Shown: positions 43,301 through 60,166 of the stretch, in pieces
How positions within the stretch are numbered: position 1 is the first letter of the stretch
Layout: the number at the start of each line of letters is the position of its first letter
Assembly: GCF_009914755.1 (NCBI RefSeq)
Contig: NC_060940.1
Strand: one strand, 5' to 3'
Length of the DNA stretch: 64,000 nucleotides
Source of the DNA: the human T2T-CHM13v2.0 reference genome, Homo sapiens
Position numbers and translations under genes: made by a program
Notes under the pieces: generated by a model
The model's database searches: none
The model's input: the letters and a program-made list of their open reading frames with translations, nothing else
What the model was told of the DNA's origin: nothing

Positions 43301-44394
43301 CAGCAGGTATCTGGCTTCGGCCCCCTCTTTAAACTATATGCACCTTTCCCAGGAGCCATAGCAACCCCCAAGGGCTGCCGAGAACCATGGTGGCTCCCAT
43401 CTTCCTTCTAGACGCAGGACAGGGCAGTCTAAGCTGCTTTCATAGGCCATCAGACAGCTCTGAGTCAGAAGCAAGCGCCAGTCCCAACTCCATATGTGGC
43501 CCAAACTCCAGAACACTGCTCACCCCAGCCCACTCTGGAGCCAGGTGACATCTCCAGTTCCTCCTTGCTGCTGAAATCCCCCACAACCTGAAGGGGATTT
43601 CTGGGGGTTCCTCCAACAAAACTTGACTTCAGGACAGCCACAAATGCTGCACTCCCAGAAGGCCAATGCTCCTCTCTCCCGCACCCAGACATCTCCCCTG
43701 ATAATCCCTGGCCTTGGTGGGTGGTGGCGGGCAGGCTGAGCAAGCCAGGAAGACACGAGGCATCTGATTGCTGTGATTCCAGATGTGGCCTAACTGCCAC
43801 TATCTCAGAACAACAAGAAAAATCCCTCCTCACATCCTTGCATTGGTAAGAATACCTGCCTATTAATTAAGCACTTACGGCTGCTGGGGTTCTTGCTAGC
43901 TAACCCCTTGATTACATTCTTTTTGGTGCTTCCACTGACTTTGTGAAACTAATTACCTTGATTTTTAGAAAGGTTCAAAGAGGTTAAATAGCTTTGCCCA
44001 AGGCCTCACAACCAGCAAGAGGGTTTTGAGCCCATATCTATCTGACTCCAGGGCAGGAACTTGTAACTGCTCAATGTGGCTGTTTCTGCAGGACTCAACT
44101 TGGAGATAAACCACAAACGCACCAGCTTGGGCTCCTCAGTCCTCCAGGAATGGGCCTCCCAGAAACAGACCAACTGTGCATCTGAAATGAACGAGGCAAG
44201 ACTGTCCCAGTAGACAGTTTAAAGGTCACTGTGGCCACCCTACTGTCATACCCAGAACCATGTCCCCCTGATCTCAACAGCTCTGGAAAGCAGGAAGTAG
44301 GAGCTTCACTCTTTACTCCTCACCAGGAAAACCAAAGTGGCATGGAGACACTGGCTTTGCTTCTTGGAGAAGCAGGGATGAGCTCTCTCACCCA

Positions 44395-44587
44395 ACACAG
44401 ATTTGGGACAGGGGCCTGAATGACAGGTGTCAGAGCCCACAGGGCTGAGCCTGGCCCCGTGGGGGGCTGTGCAGCGCAGTGGTTAAGAACTTGTGTTCTG
44501 GAGACAGTATCTGTCTTAGCCTTTCCCGTTGGCCTCCCGTTGGGGTCAGCCCCTCCAGGATCCATTCATTAGCTACCCCAGGGGAGG
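44395..44587 (+). repeat. Inverted repeat, left arm (partner 47804-47992)
   Basis: Manual alignment to the reverse complement of 47804-47992: 9 substitutions plus one 4-nt indel (CATT). Confidence 0.97.
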
Positions 44588-44684
44588 TGATGCTGACTGA
44601 GAAATTTCTTGCCAAGCCAACCACTGATCACTGGCTCCATGAAGGGCGGCAGGAGCCCTAACTCATTTAATCCTCAGAACAATT

Positions 44685-45006
44685 ATATTATTATTATTAT
44701 TACTATTATTAGAGACAGAGTCTCGCTCTGTCGCCCAGGCTGGGGTGCAGTGGTGCGATCTTGGCTCACTGCAACCTTTCCGCCTCCCGGGTTCAAGCGA
44801 TTCTCCTGCCTCAGCCTCCCAAGTAGCTGGGATTACAAGCATGCACCGCCACGCCTGGCTAATTTTTTTTTTTTTTTTTTTTTTTTTTAGTAGAGACTGG
44901 GTTTCACCATGTTGGCCAGGATGATCTCAATCTCTTAACCTCGTGATCTGCCCACCTCGGCCTCCCAAAGTGCTAGGATTACAGGCATGAGCCACGGCAC
45001 CCAGCC
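44685..45006 (-). mobile_element. Alu (AluS-like) inside the inverted-repeat spacer
   Basis: (ATT)n tail, expanded central T run; TSD AACAATT. Confidence 0.92.
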
Positions 45007-46563
45007 AACAATTCTAAAAGGCGTATGCCCACATGCCCATTTTGCAGAAGAGAAAAACTGAGGCAGAGACAGGTTATATAATTTGCTCAAGGTCACACAG
45101 CTTATTCTGGGATTCACACCCAAGCAGCCTGATTCTTGAGTGCCTACTCTTAACCACTGAGTCATCCTGCCTCCCTAGGGGCTTTGGTGAATCTCTCAGC
45201 AAGGTGGATGGGTACCTCTAAAGCTAGCTTTTGATGACTTCTCCCCCCAGTCTGTTCCTGCAAGTAACTCTAAACACATTCACCCTAGGCAAAGAACAAG
45301 TGGTTTTGGAACCTGCATTCTCTATTGCCCCTTTGAGACTCGCTCTGGGCTTGGCCCTCTCTCCAAGGGACAACCCTCTCTCTGTCTCCTCCTGGGTTCC
45401 CCTCTCCCCCAGCGACCTCCTTTTCATTCTCACTTACCTCCTTGCCTTTCACTCTCCTCTTGGAAGGTGGTTCAGCTAACACTCATTAGCACATGTTAAA
45501 GATCGCCAATTCATGTCTCAGTCACTCCGTAGCAGGAGAGGGGAGAAAGGAGGGATGATGCTGTCACTCTGTGGGTAATGTGTCTTACCTTACCACACCA
45601 CAAGGCCAGGACAGACCCCTAAGGGCTCAGACCGCAGGAGAGAATGGGGAGAGGGCCCAGCTCCCTGCTGGGGAGTCCTGTCTGCTGCCCTCAGGATGTG
45701 CGCTCAGTAGCTGCGTCTATTTTCTCTGAGACCAGCTCAGAACATCCCCAAGACAGAGTTGGACGTTGTTCTCTGTCCACTGGAGCAGGCACATTCCCAC
45801 GATGTCCCTAGGTGGGCGTGGTTAAGACCTGGTACGGGTTGATCTAGTTCTGCCACCCCCTGGCCAAATGTCTAAAAGCCCCCCAGAGCATGGCCAGCGT
45901 GAGGCAGGTACCAGGGGTGGAGGGAGGCTCCGAGGGGACGGATATACGAAGACCCAAACAGACAGTGGAAGCCCCCCACCCCCACCCCACACCACTTCCA
46001 TCGGAATCCTCCCGGGGCACTGCTGATTCCAGCTGCTCCCCACTAAAGCCTTGAGAACTCTTGGCTGCTCTGCAAGACTGAGCCCCATGAAGGAGCCACG
46101 TGCGGCGTGGAAAGAGTGCTGAGTTCAAATTGTAGCCCTGCCACTAATTTGCTGGGCCAGTCACTTAATCATCTGAAGTCACAAGTACCTCATCAGAAAA
46201 GTGGTCCCAGCTCTTCCTGCTGTGGAAGGATCAGAAGAGAGGAGGCACGACAGAGACCTAGTGAACTCCGAAGCCCGAGTGCTAAATATTTGTCAAGTTT
46301 GTGTTAGTATTACTATTAGTGTTGTTACTGCTGTTATTATTATTGCTACTGCCAGCAATAATAAGTGGTGGATGTACTCAAGACGGTCGGGAGGGAAGGC
46401 AAGGGCAGCCTCTCCCTCATTTTCACCGAAAATCCTCCGGGTGTCCCTGGCCCCGCGCCGAGGGGTCTCAGCGCAGAGGTAAGGGCCCTCTAGGAGTCCG
46501 GGCCGAGCCTCTCGCGCCGCCGCCCCCGCCGCGCCGCGCCCCGGTCGGATTCCCTGAGCGCGC

Positions 46564-46577
46564 GCGCCCCCTTCTGG
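46564..46577 (-). promoter_or_regulatory. CTCF-like core motif (CCAGAAGGGGGCGC on - strand)
   Basis: One deviation from CCASYAGRKGGCRS; GC-rich context raises the chance of a random match. Confidence 0.45.
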
Positions 46578-46584
46578 CGGCCGG

Positions 46585-46595
46585 GCGCAGGCGCA
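46585..46595. promoter_or_regulatory. NRF1-like motif GCGCAGGCGCA
   Basis: Matches the NRF-1 consensus (YGCGCANGCGCR), just upstream of the TATA. Confidence 0.6.
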
Positions 46596-46607
46596 GGCTC
46601 CAGAGCG

Positions 46608-46615
46608 TATATAAG
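46608..46615 (+). promoter_or_regulatory. TATA box (TATATAAG)
   Basis: Only AT-rich island in the GC-rich promoter, ~100 nt upstream of the ATG. Confidence 0.88.
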
Positions 46616-46706
46616 GGCAGCGTGGCGCACAACCCCAGCGCGAGTGCCAGAGCCCAGCCGGCGCGGAGCGGGAGCGGTGCAGGCTGAGGTCTCCGAGCGG
46701 CTCGCC

Positions 46707-46800
46707 ATGGCTGGCCCGCAGCAGCAGCCCCCTTACCTGCACCTGGCCGAGCTGACGGCGTCCCAGTTCCTGGAAATATGGAAGCACTTTGACGCAGACG
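46707..46800 (+). CDS. CALB2: Calretinin coding exon 1 (MAGPQQQPPYLHLAELTASQFLEIWKHFDAD + phase-1 G)
   Basis: Kozak GCCATGG at 46704-46710; 94 nt then a GTCAGT donor at 46801. Translation is the calretinin N-terminus; the intron interrupts the EF-hand 1 loop DAD|GNGYIE. Confidence 0.98.
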
Positions 46801-47803
46801 GTCAGTAAAGCTCCCAACTTCTGTGCCCATTGGCACCCAGGGGACCTGCGGTGAAGGGGGCAGGGGGCGGCGCTGAATGCGGGCAGGTGTACGTTTGCCC
46901 TCAGGAGGTGGTCTGGTCGCAGAGCCTGCTGGGGTAGTGGTCCCGGGTTTGGGAGACATCCGGCTGCTCTGGGCACAACTGTCAGTAACTTTCTTCCCTA
47001 ACATAGATGACCCAGAGCCCACCCGCATTTGCACCTTTATTCTGAGCAAGTGGGAGCTTTCTCAGAGAGGTGGCCTGGGCTGGGAAGGCCTCCAGGTTCC
47101 CCCTGCCATCTCCCCCACCTCCCCTGCCTTCAGCTGCTCCAGCCACAGGTCTCAGAAGACCACTCATTTCTTTCCTCCTCTTCCCCTTTTGTTGAATGCT
47201 AGGTTAGCCCCCTTACCCTGCTGGAGGCTGGGATAAATTAGGGGATCCTGAAGGGAAACGTGGCCTCCCCAGCTTGATTGGCTGGGAGCAGGAGTGGAAA
47301 ATGGCATTGGGGGCCCTGAACACCCCCCTGCTTCCTTTGTCCATTTTCCAGCCGCCGTGGGCATGTAGGTTTCCCAATACAGCAGCAGTGGGTGTGGTGG
47401 CGGGCAGCGTTGGGGTGCCAGTCCCAGACCTGTTCCCTCATAGTGATAATCCTGGGTACTCTTGGTGACTTCATCTCTGGGTAGGGGGAGGCACCACCCT
47501 AAGTGCCTCAGTGACTAACCCTCTGCTCTGTGTGGTCTTGACACTGACTCACCCAAAAAGCAAGGGCCAGACCAAATGACCTTTGGAGGTAGCCCCCAGC
47601 ACTGGGATTCCAAGTGTCTGTGGTGGTCTGACTCAGGCATAAAGGGTGGTCCTCCTTTAGAGGCTTTTGATATCACTAGAGACTCTGTTTCTGTTACTCC
47701 GAAAAAATAAGTGATCTGATTTCCCTCTCTACGCACAGACCTGGCTAAGATGAGCATCCAAAATATCCTGGCATCTCAGACATTTTGTGGTGTCTGTAGC
47801 TAC

Positions 47804-47992
47804 CCTCCCCTCGGGTAGCTAATGGCTCCTGGAGGGGCTGACCCCAAAGGGAGGCCAACGGGAAAGGCTAAGACAGATGCTGTCTCCAGAAGACAAGTTC
47901 TTAACCACTGCACTGCACAGCCCCCCAGGGGGCCAGGCTCAGCCTTGTGGGCTCTGACACCTGTCATTCAGGCCCCTGTCCCAGATCTGTGT
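47804..47992 (-). repeat. Inverted repeat, right arm, in CALB2 intron 1
   Basis: Reverse complement of 44395-44587; also visible as near-identical spurious ORFs 44320..44565(-) and 47822..48163(+). Confidence 0.97.
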
Positions 47993-50811
47993 GGGATGAC
48001 AGGGAGTTTATCCTGGGGTCTGAGAGCAAGGGGGATGGAAAACAGAGGGGCATCAGGTGTGCCTCACTCCATTCTTCCCTCCTCCCTTCCTCGCCTTGGC
48101 AGGGTGTGGAGGTGGCTGGGCAGAGATCCTCTGCCCAGAGTGCTATGGGGAGGCAGGGGTTAATGTCTGGGGATGCTAATGGGTGAAATTTTGTTTCCTT
48201 GGAGCCAACTGAGAAAGCTAGAGGGGTAGGGGACTAGGCATTTGAATACCTGAGTTAGGACTGTGATCTGCCTATGAATTACTGATGGAAGTGGGTAGAT
48301 TGTTAAATCTGTAAAATGGGGCTAAGGAGGGATTGTGTTTCCAATCCCCAGCTCCTGCCATAAAATTCCCTTGGTACAAAGTGCTCTCCTAAGAGAAGTG
48401 CAGCCTTTTAGTATTCCAGATGACATGCACATTCCCTAAGGAGGCTCCTGCCAGTTTATCTGCACCAGACTTGCATGATTCAAGGAAAGTTACCAAGCAG
48501 CCAAGGTTACACCACTGGCTTCCTGGTAGATGAGTCAGCTATAAACAGAGGACTCTATAGTTCTACTTTCCCCCATTCTCAGAGGGACAAGCAAGAGCAC
48601 TGTCCATAACCACGCAGATCCTTACGTTGATCTGAGACATTGTACTTAAGCACAATTGCACCTTCTCAAGGTGTGAGGCTGCTGGGCAGACCATGACTCC
48701 CCTTATACAGATGAGGAAACAGACACAGGGGTTGACTTTTCCGAGGTCATGGAGCAAGTTACTGGTGGGGCTGGTTCCTGGCCAGCGTTTATTCTCCCAC
48801 TCTGGTTCCTGAACACCTGCTTGGTTTGGAAGAGGGTTTTTTTCCATGATGATAGGTATAAGTCTCCCTCCCATTCCCCCAAAGAAAAGCCCCCAGCCCA
48901 CCCTTGGGGTTGATGGGCAGTTTCGTGTATCCCAAAATGGGGTCCTTGGCTTGGCTAGAGTGTAGTTAAGCTACCACCAAACCCATGATCTTCAAAGCCT
49001 CCTAAAGCCATTGTGCCTCTGGCTCCCTCCTGCTCCGGGGTGAAGGGGGAGCTTGATGCTTGCACCTTCTTCCTTGTCCATCAGACTTCCACTGCCATCT
49101 CTACATCACAGCCTCAGGGAAGTCCCAAGGAAAGGCCATGGACCCGACAGAGAAGGAGGGCCATGAGGATTAAAATACCAGAGATGAGAGAGAGGTGACT
49201 TAGGAAGATATGTATACAGCCAAATCGGAATTCCACAAAAGGATCCAGAATTAGGCTTTGGGCGACCTTCCTCCCCTCCTGAACACCCAAAGGCTGCCAG
49301 GTGAGCCCAACACCGCAGTGCCTGAGGCACTCCCAGCCCTGTTTAGGCCTCTCTCCTACCAATTCTGGTTTCCGTTTTCAACATGGGGTTTCTTCCCAAT
49401 TCTAAGAGTACCCCCTACCACTCACAATCTTAAAAACACCTGAGAGAACTCTCCCTTGCAGCTCTCCAGGTCCCTGGAGTGGGCTCGCTGGAGCCCAATT
49501 AACCACAGCCCCCAGAGAGTTGGAGCCACCTCCCCACCCCTTCTGGATGCTGGCTGGTAGTAAACAAAGACAAAGAGACCTTAGGAGGCAGCTGAATCCC
49601 AACGAGAGGGAGGATGGGGGCAGGAGGACCCTTAGCCCATTCCAAAACAGAAAAAGCCACCATCACCCTAAAGAGTTGGATTATTTTCAAAATTCTTATT
49701 AGCTTTGTGGTAGAGAAAGGAAGAAGTGTATGTTTGGAGAGTGAGAAACTAGGACTCAAAGAGGCAAAATTCTTTTCACAAGATCACACAGCAAAGCAGG
49801 AAGAGGTGAAGGGGAAACCAGGAATCTGGTCTCCTAGTCCGCAATACCACTCCACCAACTCTGCCTCAGCAGTCAGCCAAGAGCATGCGTTTGGGAGGGT
49901 TCCAACGTTGTCTCTCAAAGGCTGAGGTAGGGAAGATGACAGCCAAGCCCACCCAGTGACCCTGGTGGGGTCTAGGGCTCTTCCGAACATCACCTCCATG
50001 CTCCGAGTGGCCCTGACGTGGCCTTACGTATCTGAGCCCATTGCTCTGTTGCTTCCTGGACACTTCTGTATCAGGACCTTTCCCCCTCTAAAGGATCCAG
50101 GTGGCTGAGGGATGCCCAGTTCAGAGTTCACACTGTCCTTTATTTGTGGTTCTGATTAGACAGGCCACCGGGCTCCTATTTTGCTGACCATCTGCGAGCA
50201 GCAAAGTTGTGGCTCCAAAGAGAAATGCCTTAGCTTTTGCTACCCCTTTGAAAGCAACTAAGAATGTAAAGATAAGATGAGTTCTCTTCCAGGGGCAAGC
50301 AGACATTCATGGGGCCAAGGTGAACATCCTACTCCCTTCCAAGAATCTAGCCTACATAGATATACTCGTATGTGCGCAGAAAGTTATATGAACAAACATG
50401 TCTATTACAGTGTTCTTCGGAAATACTAACAATTTCAGTGGGTGGAGGGGAGAATGTGCTTCACTGGGGGACAGAAAAATAAATATGGTCATCCCTATGA
50501 TGGAGTATGATAGAGCGAAGTGAAGCTTTTGTAGTGACATGGAAAAATGTCCAAGATGTATTATTAAGATATTGTTTAAAACTGTAGCTGAACACTATTA
50601 TAAGCCCGTTTTTATTATGAATGATATATGTATGTTGCAGGATATTTAGAAAAATACAACTGAATAATAGCGGCTCTCTCTGAAGAGTGGATGAGCCAAA
50701 TGAAAGGGGATTTTCTTTTACTTTCTAAGTTAATTTCCATAGCACTTGAAAATTTTACAAGAGCATCTATTTCCTGTGTAGTCAGCAAAACAATAAAGAT
50801 ATAAGAAGGGA

Positions 50812-60089: not shown

Positions 60090-60166
60090 GAAATGGGTAT
60101 ATTGAAGGTAAAGAGCTAGAAAACTTTTTCCAAGAGCTGGAGAAGGCAAGGAAAGGCTCTGGCATG
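60090..60166 (+). CDS. CALB2: Calretinin coding exon 2 (GNGYIEGKELENFFQELEKARKGSGM)
   Basis: Polypyrimidine tract and TACAG acceptor ending at 60089; GTAAG donor at 60167. 77 nt, so 94+77=171 restores frame and completes EF-hand 1. Confidence 0.98.

What the first reader, a model, noticed from the sequence alone, without database searches (positions are those of the whole stretch)
44395..47992. CALB2 promoter and exon 1 sit inside a ~190-bp inverted repeat: a potentially invertible 3.2-kb promoter cassette
Seen: 44395-44587 (193 nt) is the reverse complement of 47804-47992 (189 nt), with 9 substitutions and one 4-nt indel (~95%). The 3216-bp spacer holds the whole CpG island, TATA box and coding exon 1. 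The arms are not recognisable Alu, L1 or LTR; only a short core (GCAGTGGTTAAGAAC...CTGGAGACAG) is MIR-like. Known: independent MIR copies are far more diverged than 5%, and inverted repeats are substrates for recurrent NAHR inversion and gene conversion (e.g. FLNA-EMD). Inference: a local inverted duplication whose recombination would flip the promoter and exon 1 to point away from exons 2+, i.e. a DNA-level off state. Alternatively, it is a duplicated cis-element pair placed on both sides of the TSS. Arms this short are near the lower limit for efficient NAHR, so inversion may be rare.
Basis: partly seen in the sequence, partly recalled or inferred. Interest (0 to 1): 0.85.

Follow-up and report, generated by a model that had tools for sequence, protein, structure and literature searches.

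The report
Short inverted duplication flanking CALB2 promoter
A real pair of roughly 210-base inverted copies brackets the human CALB2 promoter and first exon, but it looks like a leftover of an old local duplication, not a switch that flips the promoter.

Summary
Bases 44395-44587 are the reverse complement of 47804-47992, with 9 substitutions and one 4-nt indel. Weaker homology runs outward to 44376 and 48013. The 3216-bp spacer holds the CpG island, TATATAA, the TSS, the ATG and the exon-1 splice donor.

The arm has only these two copies in the 3.1-Gb genome, even at E<=10. It is not significantly MIR-like: a MIR profile built from the window matches only 29 nt, at E 4-11. It gave no Rfam match, no tRNA, no unusually stable RNA fold and no CTCF-like motif.

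The "invertible promoter cassette / DNA-level off state" is not supported:
- The longest uninterrupted identity is 38 nt. Published minimal segments are 134-232 bp in mitosis and 300-500 bp in meiosis.
- No inversion is listed here among 612 repeat-flanked candidate inversions.
- Both arms lie outside every tested CALB2 promoter construct.
- An inversion would simply give a null allele.

Age, and which arm is the parent copy, could not be tested because no other mammalian genome was available. Ordinary; low interest.

The parts
44376..44587 (+). Left arm of the inverted duplication (212 nt; -2261..-2050 from the CALB2 TSS). The core 44406-44587 is 95.5% identical to the partner; the outer 30 nt are 80% identical.
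47804..48013 (-). Right arm (210 nt; +1167..+1376, inside CALB2 intron 1), the reverse complement of the left arm.
44588..47803 (.). 3216-bp spacer. Apart from the arms, the flanks share no homology (inner flanks and outer flanks are no better than random window pairs).
46400..46799 (.). CpG island of the CALB2 promoter (200-nt windows with GC 0.68-0.78 and CpG o/e 0.79-1.05).
46608..46614 (+). TATATAA box, -29..-23 from the annotated TSS.
   Evidence: sequence read directly
46637..46800 (+). CALB2 exon 1 (coding 46707-46800, MAGPQQQPPYLHLAELTASQFLEIWKHFDAD; GT donor at 46801).
   Evidence: hub annotation
44710..45005 (-). Alu in the spacer next to the left arm (matches to the SRP RNA model, below its gathering score, as Alus give).
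   Evidence: hub repeat mask 44656-45009
45036..45163 (-). An ordinary MIR copy in the spacer. It was the seed of the MIR profile. Its head motif explains the 35-nt 'inverted repeat' I2.

Best explanation
The two arms are the products of a single local inverted duplication of a ~212-bp stretch of otherwise unique sequence. One copy sits 2.1-2.3 kb upstream of the CALB2 TSS and the other 1.2-1.4 kb into intron 1. Shown: the repeat exists, it is unique to this locus, and it is not a recognisable transposon, RNA gene or CTCF site. Inferred: it arose once, through a replication or repair accident that copied nearby sequence in reverse orientation (template switching or a templated insertion at a break). 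If no gene conversion has occurred, it has drifted since for roughly 10-35 million years at 1-2.2e-9 substitutions per site per year, up to ~70 My at a slower rate. It does nothing today. The orientation seen here is the only functional one. At most, the pair is a poor substrate for very rare homology-driven inversions that would produce a CALB2-null allele.
For: (1) The repeat is real and highly significant. (2) There are only two copies in the 3.1-Gb assembly, even at E<=10, and no other significant match in the window to a profile of the arms. (3) Homology stops at the arm ends. The nhmmer extension inward has posterior probabilities of 1-4, and flank comparisons are no better than controls (for example outer 100 nt, 356 of 361 controls score at least as high; inner 90 nt, 240 of 355). 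(4) The arms are not a MIR: the window-derived profile of 20 copies matches only 29 nt at E 4-11. There is no Rfam match in the arms (4 matches in 44000-48400, all in the Alu), no tRNA, and fold z-scores of -0.49 and -0.60. (5) The longest perfect tract is 38 nt, against MEPS of 134-232 bp in mitosis and 300-500 bp in meiosis (PMC2583991, passages). NAHR inversions genotyped by Giner-Delgado et al. had repeats of 654 bp-24.2 kb (PMC6748972, passages). (6) The locus is absent from Supplemental Table S1 of PMC13629690. That table holds 612 candidates with repeats of 140 bp-190 kb, drawn from 58 previously characterised inversions, 1528 calls in 195 people, earlier paired-end mapping (InvFEST) predictions and 319 annotated inverted duplication pairs. 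Its format was checked. (7) Promoter activity needs only -161/+80, and the longest construct tested was -838 (PMC5008284, passages). (8) Inverted pairs of this size class are commonplace: 27 pairs >=150 nt within 10 kb in this 64-kb window.
Against: (1) The CALB2 pair is the only one of those 27 pairs that reaches >=90% identity and the only one not at an Alu-masked place, so it is the best local substrate. (2) Short matches can suffice when repeats lie close together. Lam and Jeffreys saw exchanges between alpha-globin repeats ~5 kb apart with matches under 50 bp (as cited in PMC2583991). [quoted passage not shown] Nine were flanked by Alu pairs, of which only 1 of 9 was >90% identical. Arms of this size are therefore not excluded. 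(4) Divergence is uneven: 6 of 30 outer positions differ against 8 of 178 inner positions (Fisher p = 0.007). This could be a gene-conversion footprint, meaning the arms do interact, or it could be overextension of the alignment. (5) The catalogue check is limited. The hg38 coordinates were computed from a recalled TSS position, the supplements of the bioRxiv preprint were closed, the Logsdon 2025 supplement was cut when stored, and rare or somatic events would not be listed. (6) No orthologous sequence could be examined, so age, parent copy and constraint are all untested.
Confidence: 0.8

Rival explanations
1. One reading: the arms mediate recurrent or polymorphic NAHR inversion of the 3.2-kb promoter/exon-1 block, giving a DNA-level CALB2-off allele in the germline or in somatic tissue.
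For: The geometry is right and the arms are close together (3216 bp). The pair is the most similar of the 27 nearby inverted pairs in the window. Inversions flanked by repeats of about 200-300 bp exist, and sub-50-bp matches have supported exchange between close repeats. A preprint found in a search listing (10.1101/2020.07.02.163816, abstract only) reports common somatic recombination between Alu and L1 copies.
Against: The longest identity tract is 38 nt and the total homology is 212 nt. No entry at this locus appears in the 612-candidate table or in two other supplements searched. Two literature searches found nothing relevant: CALB2 + promoter + 'inverted repeat' gave 2 papers, and CALB2 + inversion + 'structural variant' gave 5. 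A flip yields a null allele with no known way to flip back on demand.
Confidence: 0.05
2. The arms are a functional duplicated cis-element pair, for example paired factor-binding or boundary elements placed symmetrically around the TSS.
For: Identity is high in the 180-nt core (95.5%). The longest perfect tract contains a 12-nt palindrome, TGACAGGTGTCA, that includes an E-box-type CAGGTG (44421-44432 and its mirror; read; the motif meaning is recalled, not tested).
Against: The arms do not overlap any RefSeq enhancer or silencer in the hub's table. They lie outside all tested promoter constructs, and the 240-bp minimal promoter is fully active. There is no CTCF-like motif in the arms: 8 matches in the window against 8.0 expected, none in the arms. 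The 5% divergence is what neutral drift would give for a primate-age copy. No chromatin data could be consulted.
Confidence: 0.08
3. The duplication is much older than its 5% divergence suggests, and the cores are kept alike by gene conversion between the arms.
For: Divergence is uneven: the outer 30 nt are 80% identical and the remaining 178 nt 95.5% (p = 0.007).
Against: The outer stretch may simply be an overextended alignment, since its local score contribution is marginal. Nothing beyond the arms shows decayed homology. The one weak local hit in the outer flanks is not collinear with the arms and is reached by 10 of 300 shuffles.
Confidence: 0.1
4. The arms are copies of an unannotated interspersed repeat, or the terminal inverted repeats of a DNA transposon spanning 44376-48013.
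For: A short head-like motif resembling MIR (29 nt).
Against: Only two genomic copies exist. No matching target-site duplication is visible next to the outer ends (flanks read). The interior is the promoter and first coding exon of the annotated CALB2 gene. The MIR match is at chance level (E 4-11).
Confidence: 0.02

Closest known systems
   Same: Two inverted copies on one chromosome bracket genic sequence, so exchange between them would invert the spacer.
   Different: Known cases use far longer and cleaner repeats. Giner-Delgado et al. report 654 bp-24.2 kb. The X-linked row visible (154335912-154347246 / 154384868-154396246) has repeats of 11,335 and 11,379 bp around 37,621 bp; that this row is FLNA-EMD is my recollection. 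Here the arms are 212 nt, 93-95% identical, with a longest perfect tract of 38 nt and no known inverted allele.
Small polymorphic inversions flanked by inverted Alu pairs (Porubsky et al. preprint)
   Same: Arm length of about 200-300 bp, kilobase-scale or smaller spacers, and imperfect identity.
   Different: Those arms are mobile elements, and the authors suggest a different, probably non-NAHR, process. Their median inverted length is 685 bp. The CALB2 arms are unique sequence, and no inversion has been observed.
Templated inverted insertions and duplications from replication template switching (FoSTeS/MMBIR; reviewed in PMC2583991)
   Same: A nearby segment is copied in reverse orientation a few kilobases away, without a transposon signature. 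This is my proposed origin.
   Different: The diagnostic junction microhomology cannot be read without the pre-duplication sequence from an outgroup. The described cases are mostly recent pathogenic events, not fixed ancient ones.
Bacterial invertible promoters (fimS, hin type; recalled)
   Same: The layout: inverted repeats around a promoter, so that a flip would uncouple it from its gene.
   Different: Those use short crossover sites and a dedicated site-specific recombinase encoded nearby, and they flip reversibly. Nothing of that kind is present or known in humans. This is a resemblance in layout only.

Membership tests
NAHR-competent inverted low-copy repeat pair | Two copies in inverted orientation on the same chromosome, specific to the locus | tested here: met
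   the arms are the only two matches in the genome
NAHR-competent inverted low-copy repeat pair | Segmental-duplication scale (>=1 kb, >=90% identity) | tested here: not met
   212/210 nt. The identity criterion is met (93.3%) but the length criterion is not. Thresholds are as used in PMC13629690.
NAHR-competent inverted low-copy repeat pair | Uninterrupted identity at or above the minimal efficient processing segment | tested here: not met
   The longest tract is 38 nt, against 134-232 bp (mitotic) and 300-500 bp (meiotic). Exceptions under 50 bp are known at alpha-globin.
NAHR-competent inverted low-copy repeat pair | Both orientations observed among individuals | tested here: inconclusive
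   No coordinate of this locus appears in the 612-candidate table or in two other supplements. Pangenomes and reads could not be queried.
MIR SINE | Significant similarity to the MIR consensus over a substantial part of the element | tested here: not met
   The profile from 20 window copies (arms masked) matches only 44479-44507 and 47908-47880, at E 4.4 and 11. No curated consensus library was available.
DNA transposon with terminal inverted repeats | Multiple dispersed copies and a target-site duplication at the outer ends | tested here: not met
   Two copies only. The flanks at 44375 and 48014 do not match. The interior is CALB2's promoter and exon 1.
Site-specific invertible promoter (fimS/hin type) | A dedicated recombinase and short crossover sites | not tested
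   The hub's gene table lists only CALB2 and lncRNAs. No ORF search was run. That humans lack such systems is established knowledge, not a result obtained here.
Template-switch / templated inverted insertion product | An inverted copy of nearby sequence with sharp ends and no mobile-element hallmarks | tested here: met
   sharp inner end, no flank homology; unique
Template-switch / templated inverted insertion product | Microhomology or small insertions at the junctions relative to the ancestral sequence | not testable with these tools
   No outgroup mammalian genome is held ('It has no relatives here').

The most novel reading that the evidence does not exclude
The arms are a live recombination substrate. 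The uneven divergence (80% outer, 95.5% core) would be a gene-conversion footprint showing that the arms pair. Occasional crossover, in the germline or clonally in neurons or mesothelium, would then flip the 3.2-kb promoter/exon-1 block and create a stable CALB2-off allele specific to primates.
Probability: 0.04. Interest if true: 0.6.

Novelty: new member of a known kind. Interest (0 to 1): 0.18.

Why it matters
If the pair did invert, it would be a rare example of a short, non-transposon repeat silencing a human gene by flipping its promoter. That would bear on calretinin-negative tumours and on mosaicism in interneurons. As the evidence stands, its practical value is smaller. It is a clean, datable marker of a primate-era template-switch event beside a well-studied promoter. 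It is also a warning for anyone doing PCR, long-read or capture work at CALB2: a 212-nt inverted repeat 3.2 kb apart can generate chimeric 'inverted' molecules in vitro.

Tried and rejected
- **Extended homology.** nhmmer stretched the match to 44368-44723 / 48021-47680, but the extra columns have posterior probabilities of 1-4. Flank-versus-flank alignments were no better than random window pairs. One local hit in the outer flanks was reached by 10 of 300 shuffles and is offset by about 33 nt. I treated it as chance.
- **MIR identity.** The iterated nhmmer profile found 20 MIR copies in the window but only a 29-nt, chance-level match in each arm.
- **RNA gene.** There were no Rfam matches in the arms, no tRNA, and ordinary fold energies.
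- **CTCF pair.** No site in the arms at <=2 mismatches to a recalled consensus.
- **Inversion footprint from staggered breaks** (duplications made by the inversion itself). Rejected by reasoning: it would require exon 1 to have pointed away from exons 2-11 in the ancestor of a conserved gene.
- **dsRNA hairpin.** The left arm is upstream of the TSS and the right arm is in intron 1. No annotated transcript contains both. An upstream antisense RNA would carry the same strand as the pre-mRNA copy, not its complement.
- **Profile search of the whole genome.** Two sequence-only models were built, but the genome cannot be searched with a model, so sensitivity genome-wide is that of the DNA search only.
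- **Papers not held:** the Cell 2022 version of Porubsky et al. and Ebert et al. 2021.
- **PMC9199198** held no MEPS figures. **PMC7463315** mentions inversions only at other loci.
Full report
**What is there.**
The repeat finder lists arms 44385-44566 / 47821-48002 (182 nt, 94%) and 44567-44587 / 47804-47824, which are offset by a 4-nt indel. A gapped alignment gives 9 substitutions and one 4-nt gap inside 44395-44587 / 47804-47992. The spacer is 3216 bp.

Homology continues outward to 44376 / 48013, giving arms of 212 and 210 nt. Over the full arms there are 208 aligned columns, 14 substitutions (8 transitions, 6 transversions, 4 in CpG context), 6 gap columns, 93.3% identity and K2P 0.071. 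The outer 30 nt are much noisier (80%) than the remaining 178 (95.5%); Fisher p = 0.007.

Beyond the arms there is no homology. The inward extension offered by nhmmer has posterior probabilities of 1-4. Flank-against-flank alignments do no better than random pairs from the window. One weak local hit in the outer flanks is reached by 10 of 300 shuffles.

**The spacer.**
- CpG-island windows at 46400-46799 (GC 0.68-0.78, CpG o/e 0.79-1.05)
- TATATAA at 46608-46614
- the annotated TSS at 46637
- the ATG at 46707, opening MAGPQQQPPYLHLAELTASQFLEIWKHFDAD
- a GT donor at 46801

The spacer also holds an Alu (44710-45005) and an ordinary MIR (45036-45163).

**Is the arm a dispersed repeat?**
No. The left arm, searched against the whole 3.1-Gb assembly in which the window lies, finds itself and the right arm only. 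The right arm at E<=10 likewise finds only the two. The tool warns that very common words are skipped, so very old and diverged relatives could be missed.

Inside the window, a profile of the two arms run at full sensitivity finds nothing else below E = 0.14.

This gathered 20 MIR copies. That profile matches the arms only over 29 nt (44479-44507, E 4.4; 47908-47880, E 11), which is chance level. No curated repeat library was available.

**Is it some other element?**
- Rfam at E<=1 gives 4 matches in 44000-48400, all inside the Alu.
- ARAGORN finds no tRNA.
- Either strand of the arm folds no better than shuffles (z -0.49 and -0.60).
- A recalled CTCF consensus at <=2 mismatches has 8 matches in the window against 8.0 expected, none of them in the arms.

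**Can it invert?**
There is no site-specific system for this in humans (established knowledge), so only general homologous recombination or template switching is available.

The longest uninterrupted identity is 38 nt. The review by Gu, Zhang and Lupski (PMC2583991, passages) gives these figures:
- a 20-fold drop in intrachromosomal recombination when uninterrupted homology falls from 232 to 134 bp
- 300-500 bp as the minimal segment in human meiosis

The same review records exchanges with matches under 50 bp between alpha-globin repeats about 5 kb apart. That cuts against a flat "impossible".

Other published scales:
- Giner-Delgado et al. found NAHR inversions with repeats of 654 bp-24.2 kb (PMC6748972, passages).
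- In the Porubsky et al. preprint, 132 of 183 resolved balanced inversions had inverted repeats of at least 200 bp. Nine were flanked by Alu pairs, only 1 of 9 above 90% identity, and the authors suspect another mechanism for those (passages; supplements closed).

Inverted pairs of this size class are common. This 64-kb window alone has 27 of at least 150 nt within 10 kb, though the CALB2 pair is the only one at >=90% identity and the only non-Alu pair.

**Has an inversion been seen?**
PMC13629690 assembled 612 repeat-flanked candidates (repeats 140 bp-190 kb). They came from 58 previously characterised inversions, 1528 candidate calls in 195 people, earlier paired-end mapping (InvFEST) predictions and 319 annotated pairs of inverted segmental duplications (passages).

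I searched its supplement for number prefixes covering hg38 71.354-71.362 Mb, for the CHM13 coordinates and for the gene name. There were no occurrences. One search confirmed that the table stores plain integer coordinates. It also showed that the other stored file is unrelated material.

Caveats:
- The hg38 coordinates rest on my recollection of the TSS position.
- Two further supplements gave nothing on chr16, and the latter file was cut when stored.
- Full-text searches for CALB2 with "promoter" and "inverted repeat" (2 papers) and with "inversion" and "structural variant" (5 papers) gave nothing relevant.
- Rare or somatic events would escape all of these checks.

**What would a flip do?**
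Inverting 44588-47803 moves the TSS to 45754 and the exon-1 end to 45591 on the minus strand, pointing away from exon 2 at 60090. That is a null allele, not a controlled state.

**Do the arms regulate?**
They lie at -2261..-2050 and +1167..+1376. Kresoja-Rakic et al. tested -838, -419, -264 and -161 to +80 and found the 240-bp fragment fully active (PMC5008284, passages). The arms are therefore outside everything tested. They also miss the RefSeq enhancers and silencer in the hub's table. No chromatin data could be consulted.

**Most likely history (inferred).**
A one-off template switch or templated repair insertion copied about 212 bp in reverse, 3.2 kb away. At 4.5-7.1% divergence and 1-2.2e-9 substitutions per site per year this would be roughly 10-35 My ago, and up to ~70 My at 0.5e-9, provided there has been no conversion.

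The parent copy, the age and any gene conversion need outgroup genomes, which are not held here.

**Verdict.**
This is a real, locus-unique, short inverted duplication. The invertible-cassette reading is unsupported, and no function is indicated.

Noticed in passing
44376-44405 and 47984-48013: The outer 30 nt of the arms are only 80% identical (6 substitutions plus a 2-nt indel), against 95.5% for the remaining 178 nt (Fisher p = 0.007). This is either an overextended alignment or a conversion-tract edge.
   Followed up: partly
47797-47821: A 25-nt palindrome straddles the inner end of the right arm, where homology stops (47803/47804): TAGCTACCC, a 7-nt loop, then GGGTAGCTA (read). The left arm has no counterpart. 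It could be a fold-back trace of how the copy was made, or coincidence, since TAGCTA is self-complementary.
   Followed up: no
44421-44432 and 47955-47966: The longest perfectly shared tract (38 nt, 44404-44441) contains the 12-nt palindrome TGACAGGTGTCA, which includes a CAGGTG E-box-type hexamer. The motif meaning is recalled and was not tested.
   Followed up: no
44454-44488 vs 45148-45182: The 35-nt, 71% 'inverted repeat' I2 is the shared CAGTGGTTAAGA head motif. It links the left arm to a genuine minus-strand MIR at 45036-45163, which lies beside an Alu.
   Followed up: yes
46563-46577 (-): The only CTCF-like match (2 mismatches) near the finding lies in the core promoter, about 60-75 bp upstream of the TSS. 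The window-wide count equals the chance expectation.
   Followed up: no
right arm, about 47810-47825: Methylation-array probe cg27207776 (hg19 chr16:71393801) lies about 1.19 kb beyond the TSS-proximal probes in Table 1 of PMC5008284, so it should fall in or beside the right arm. Its correlation with CALB2 expression was weak (-0.25, p = 0.063 in epithelioid tumours). The position mapping is my estimate and was not checked.
   Followed up: no
supplement of PMC13629690 as stored: File 1 of the stored supplement holds plant-like protein FASTA and gene-prediction logs unrelated to the paper. Only file 2 is the inversion table, so the negative result rests on that file alone.
   Followed up: partly
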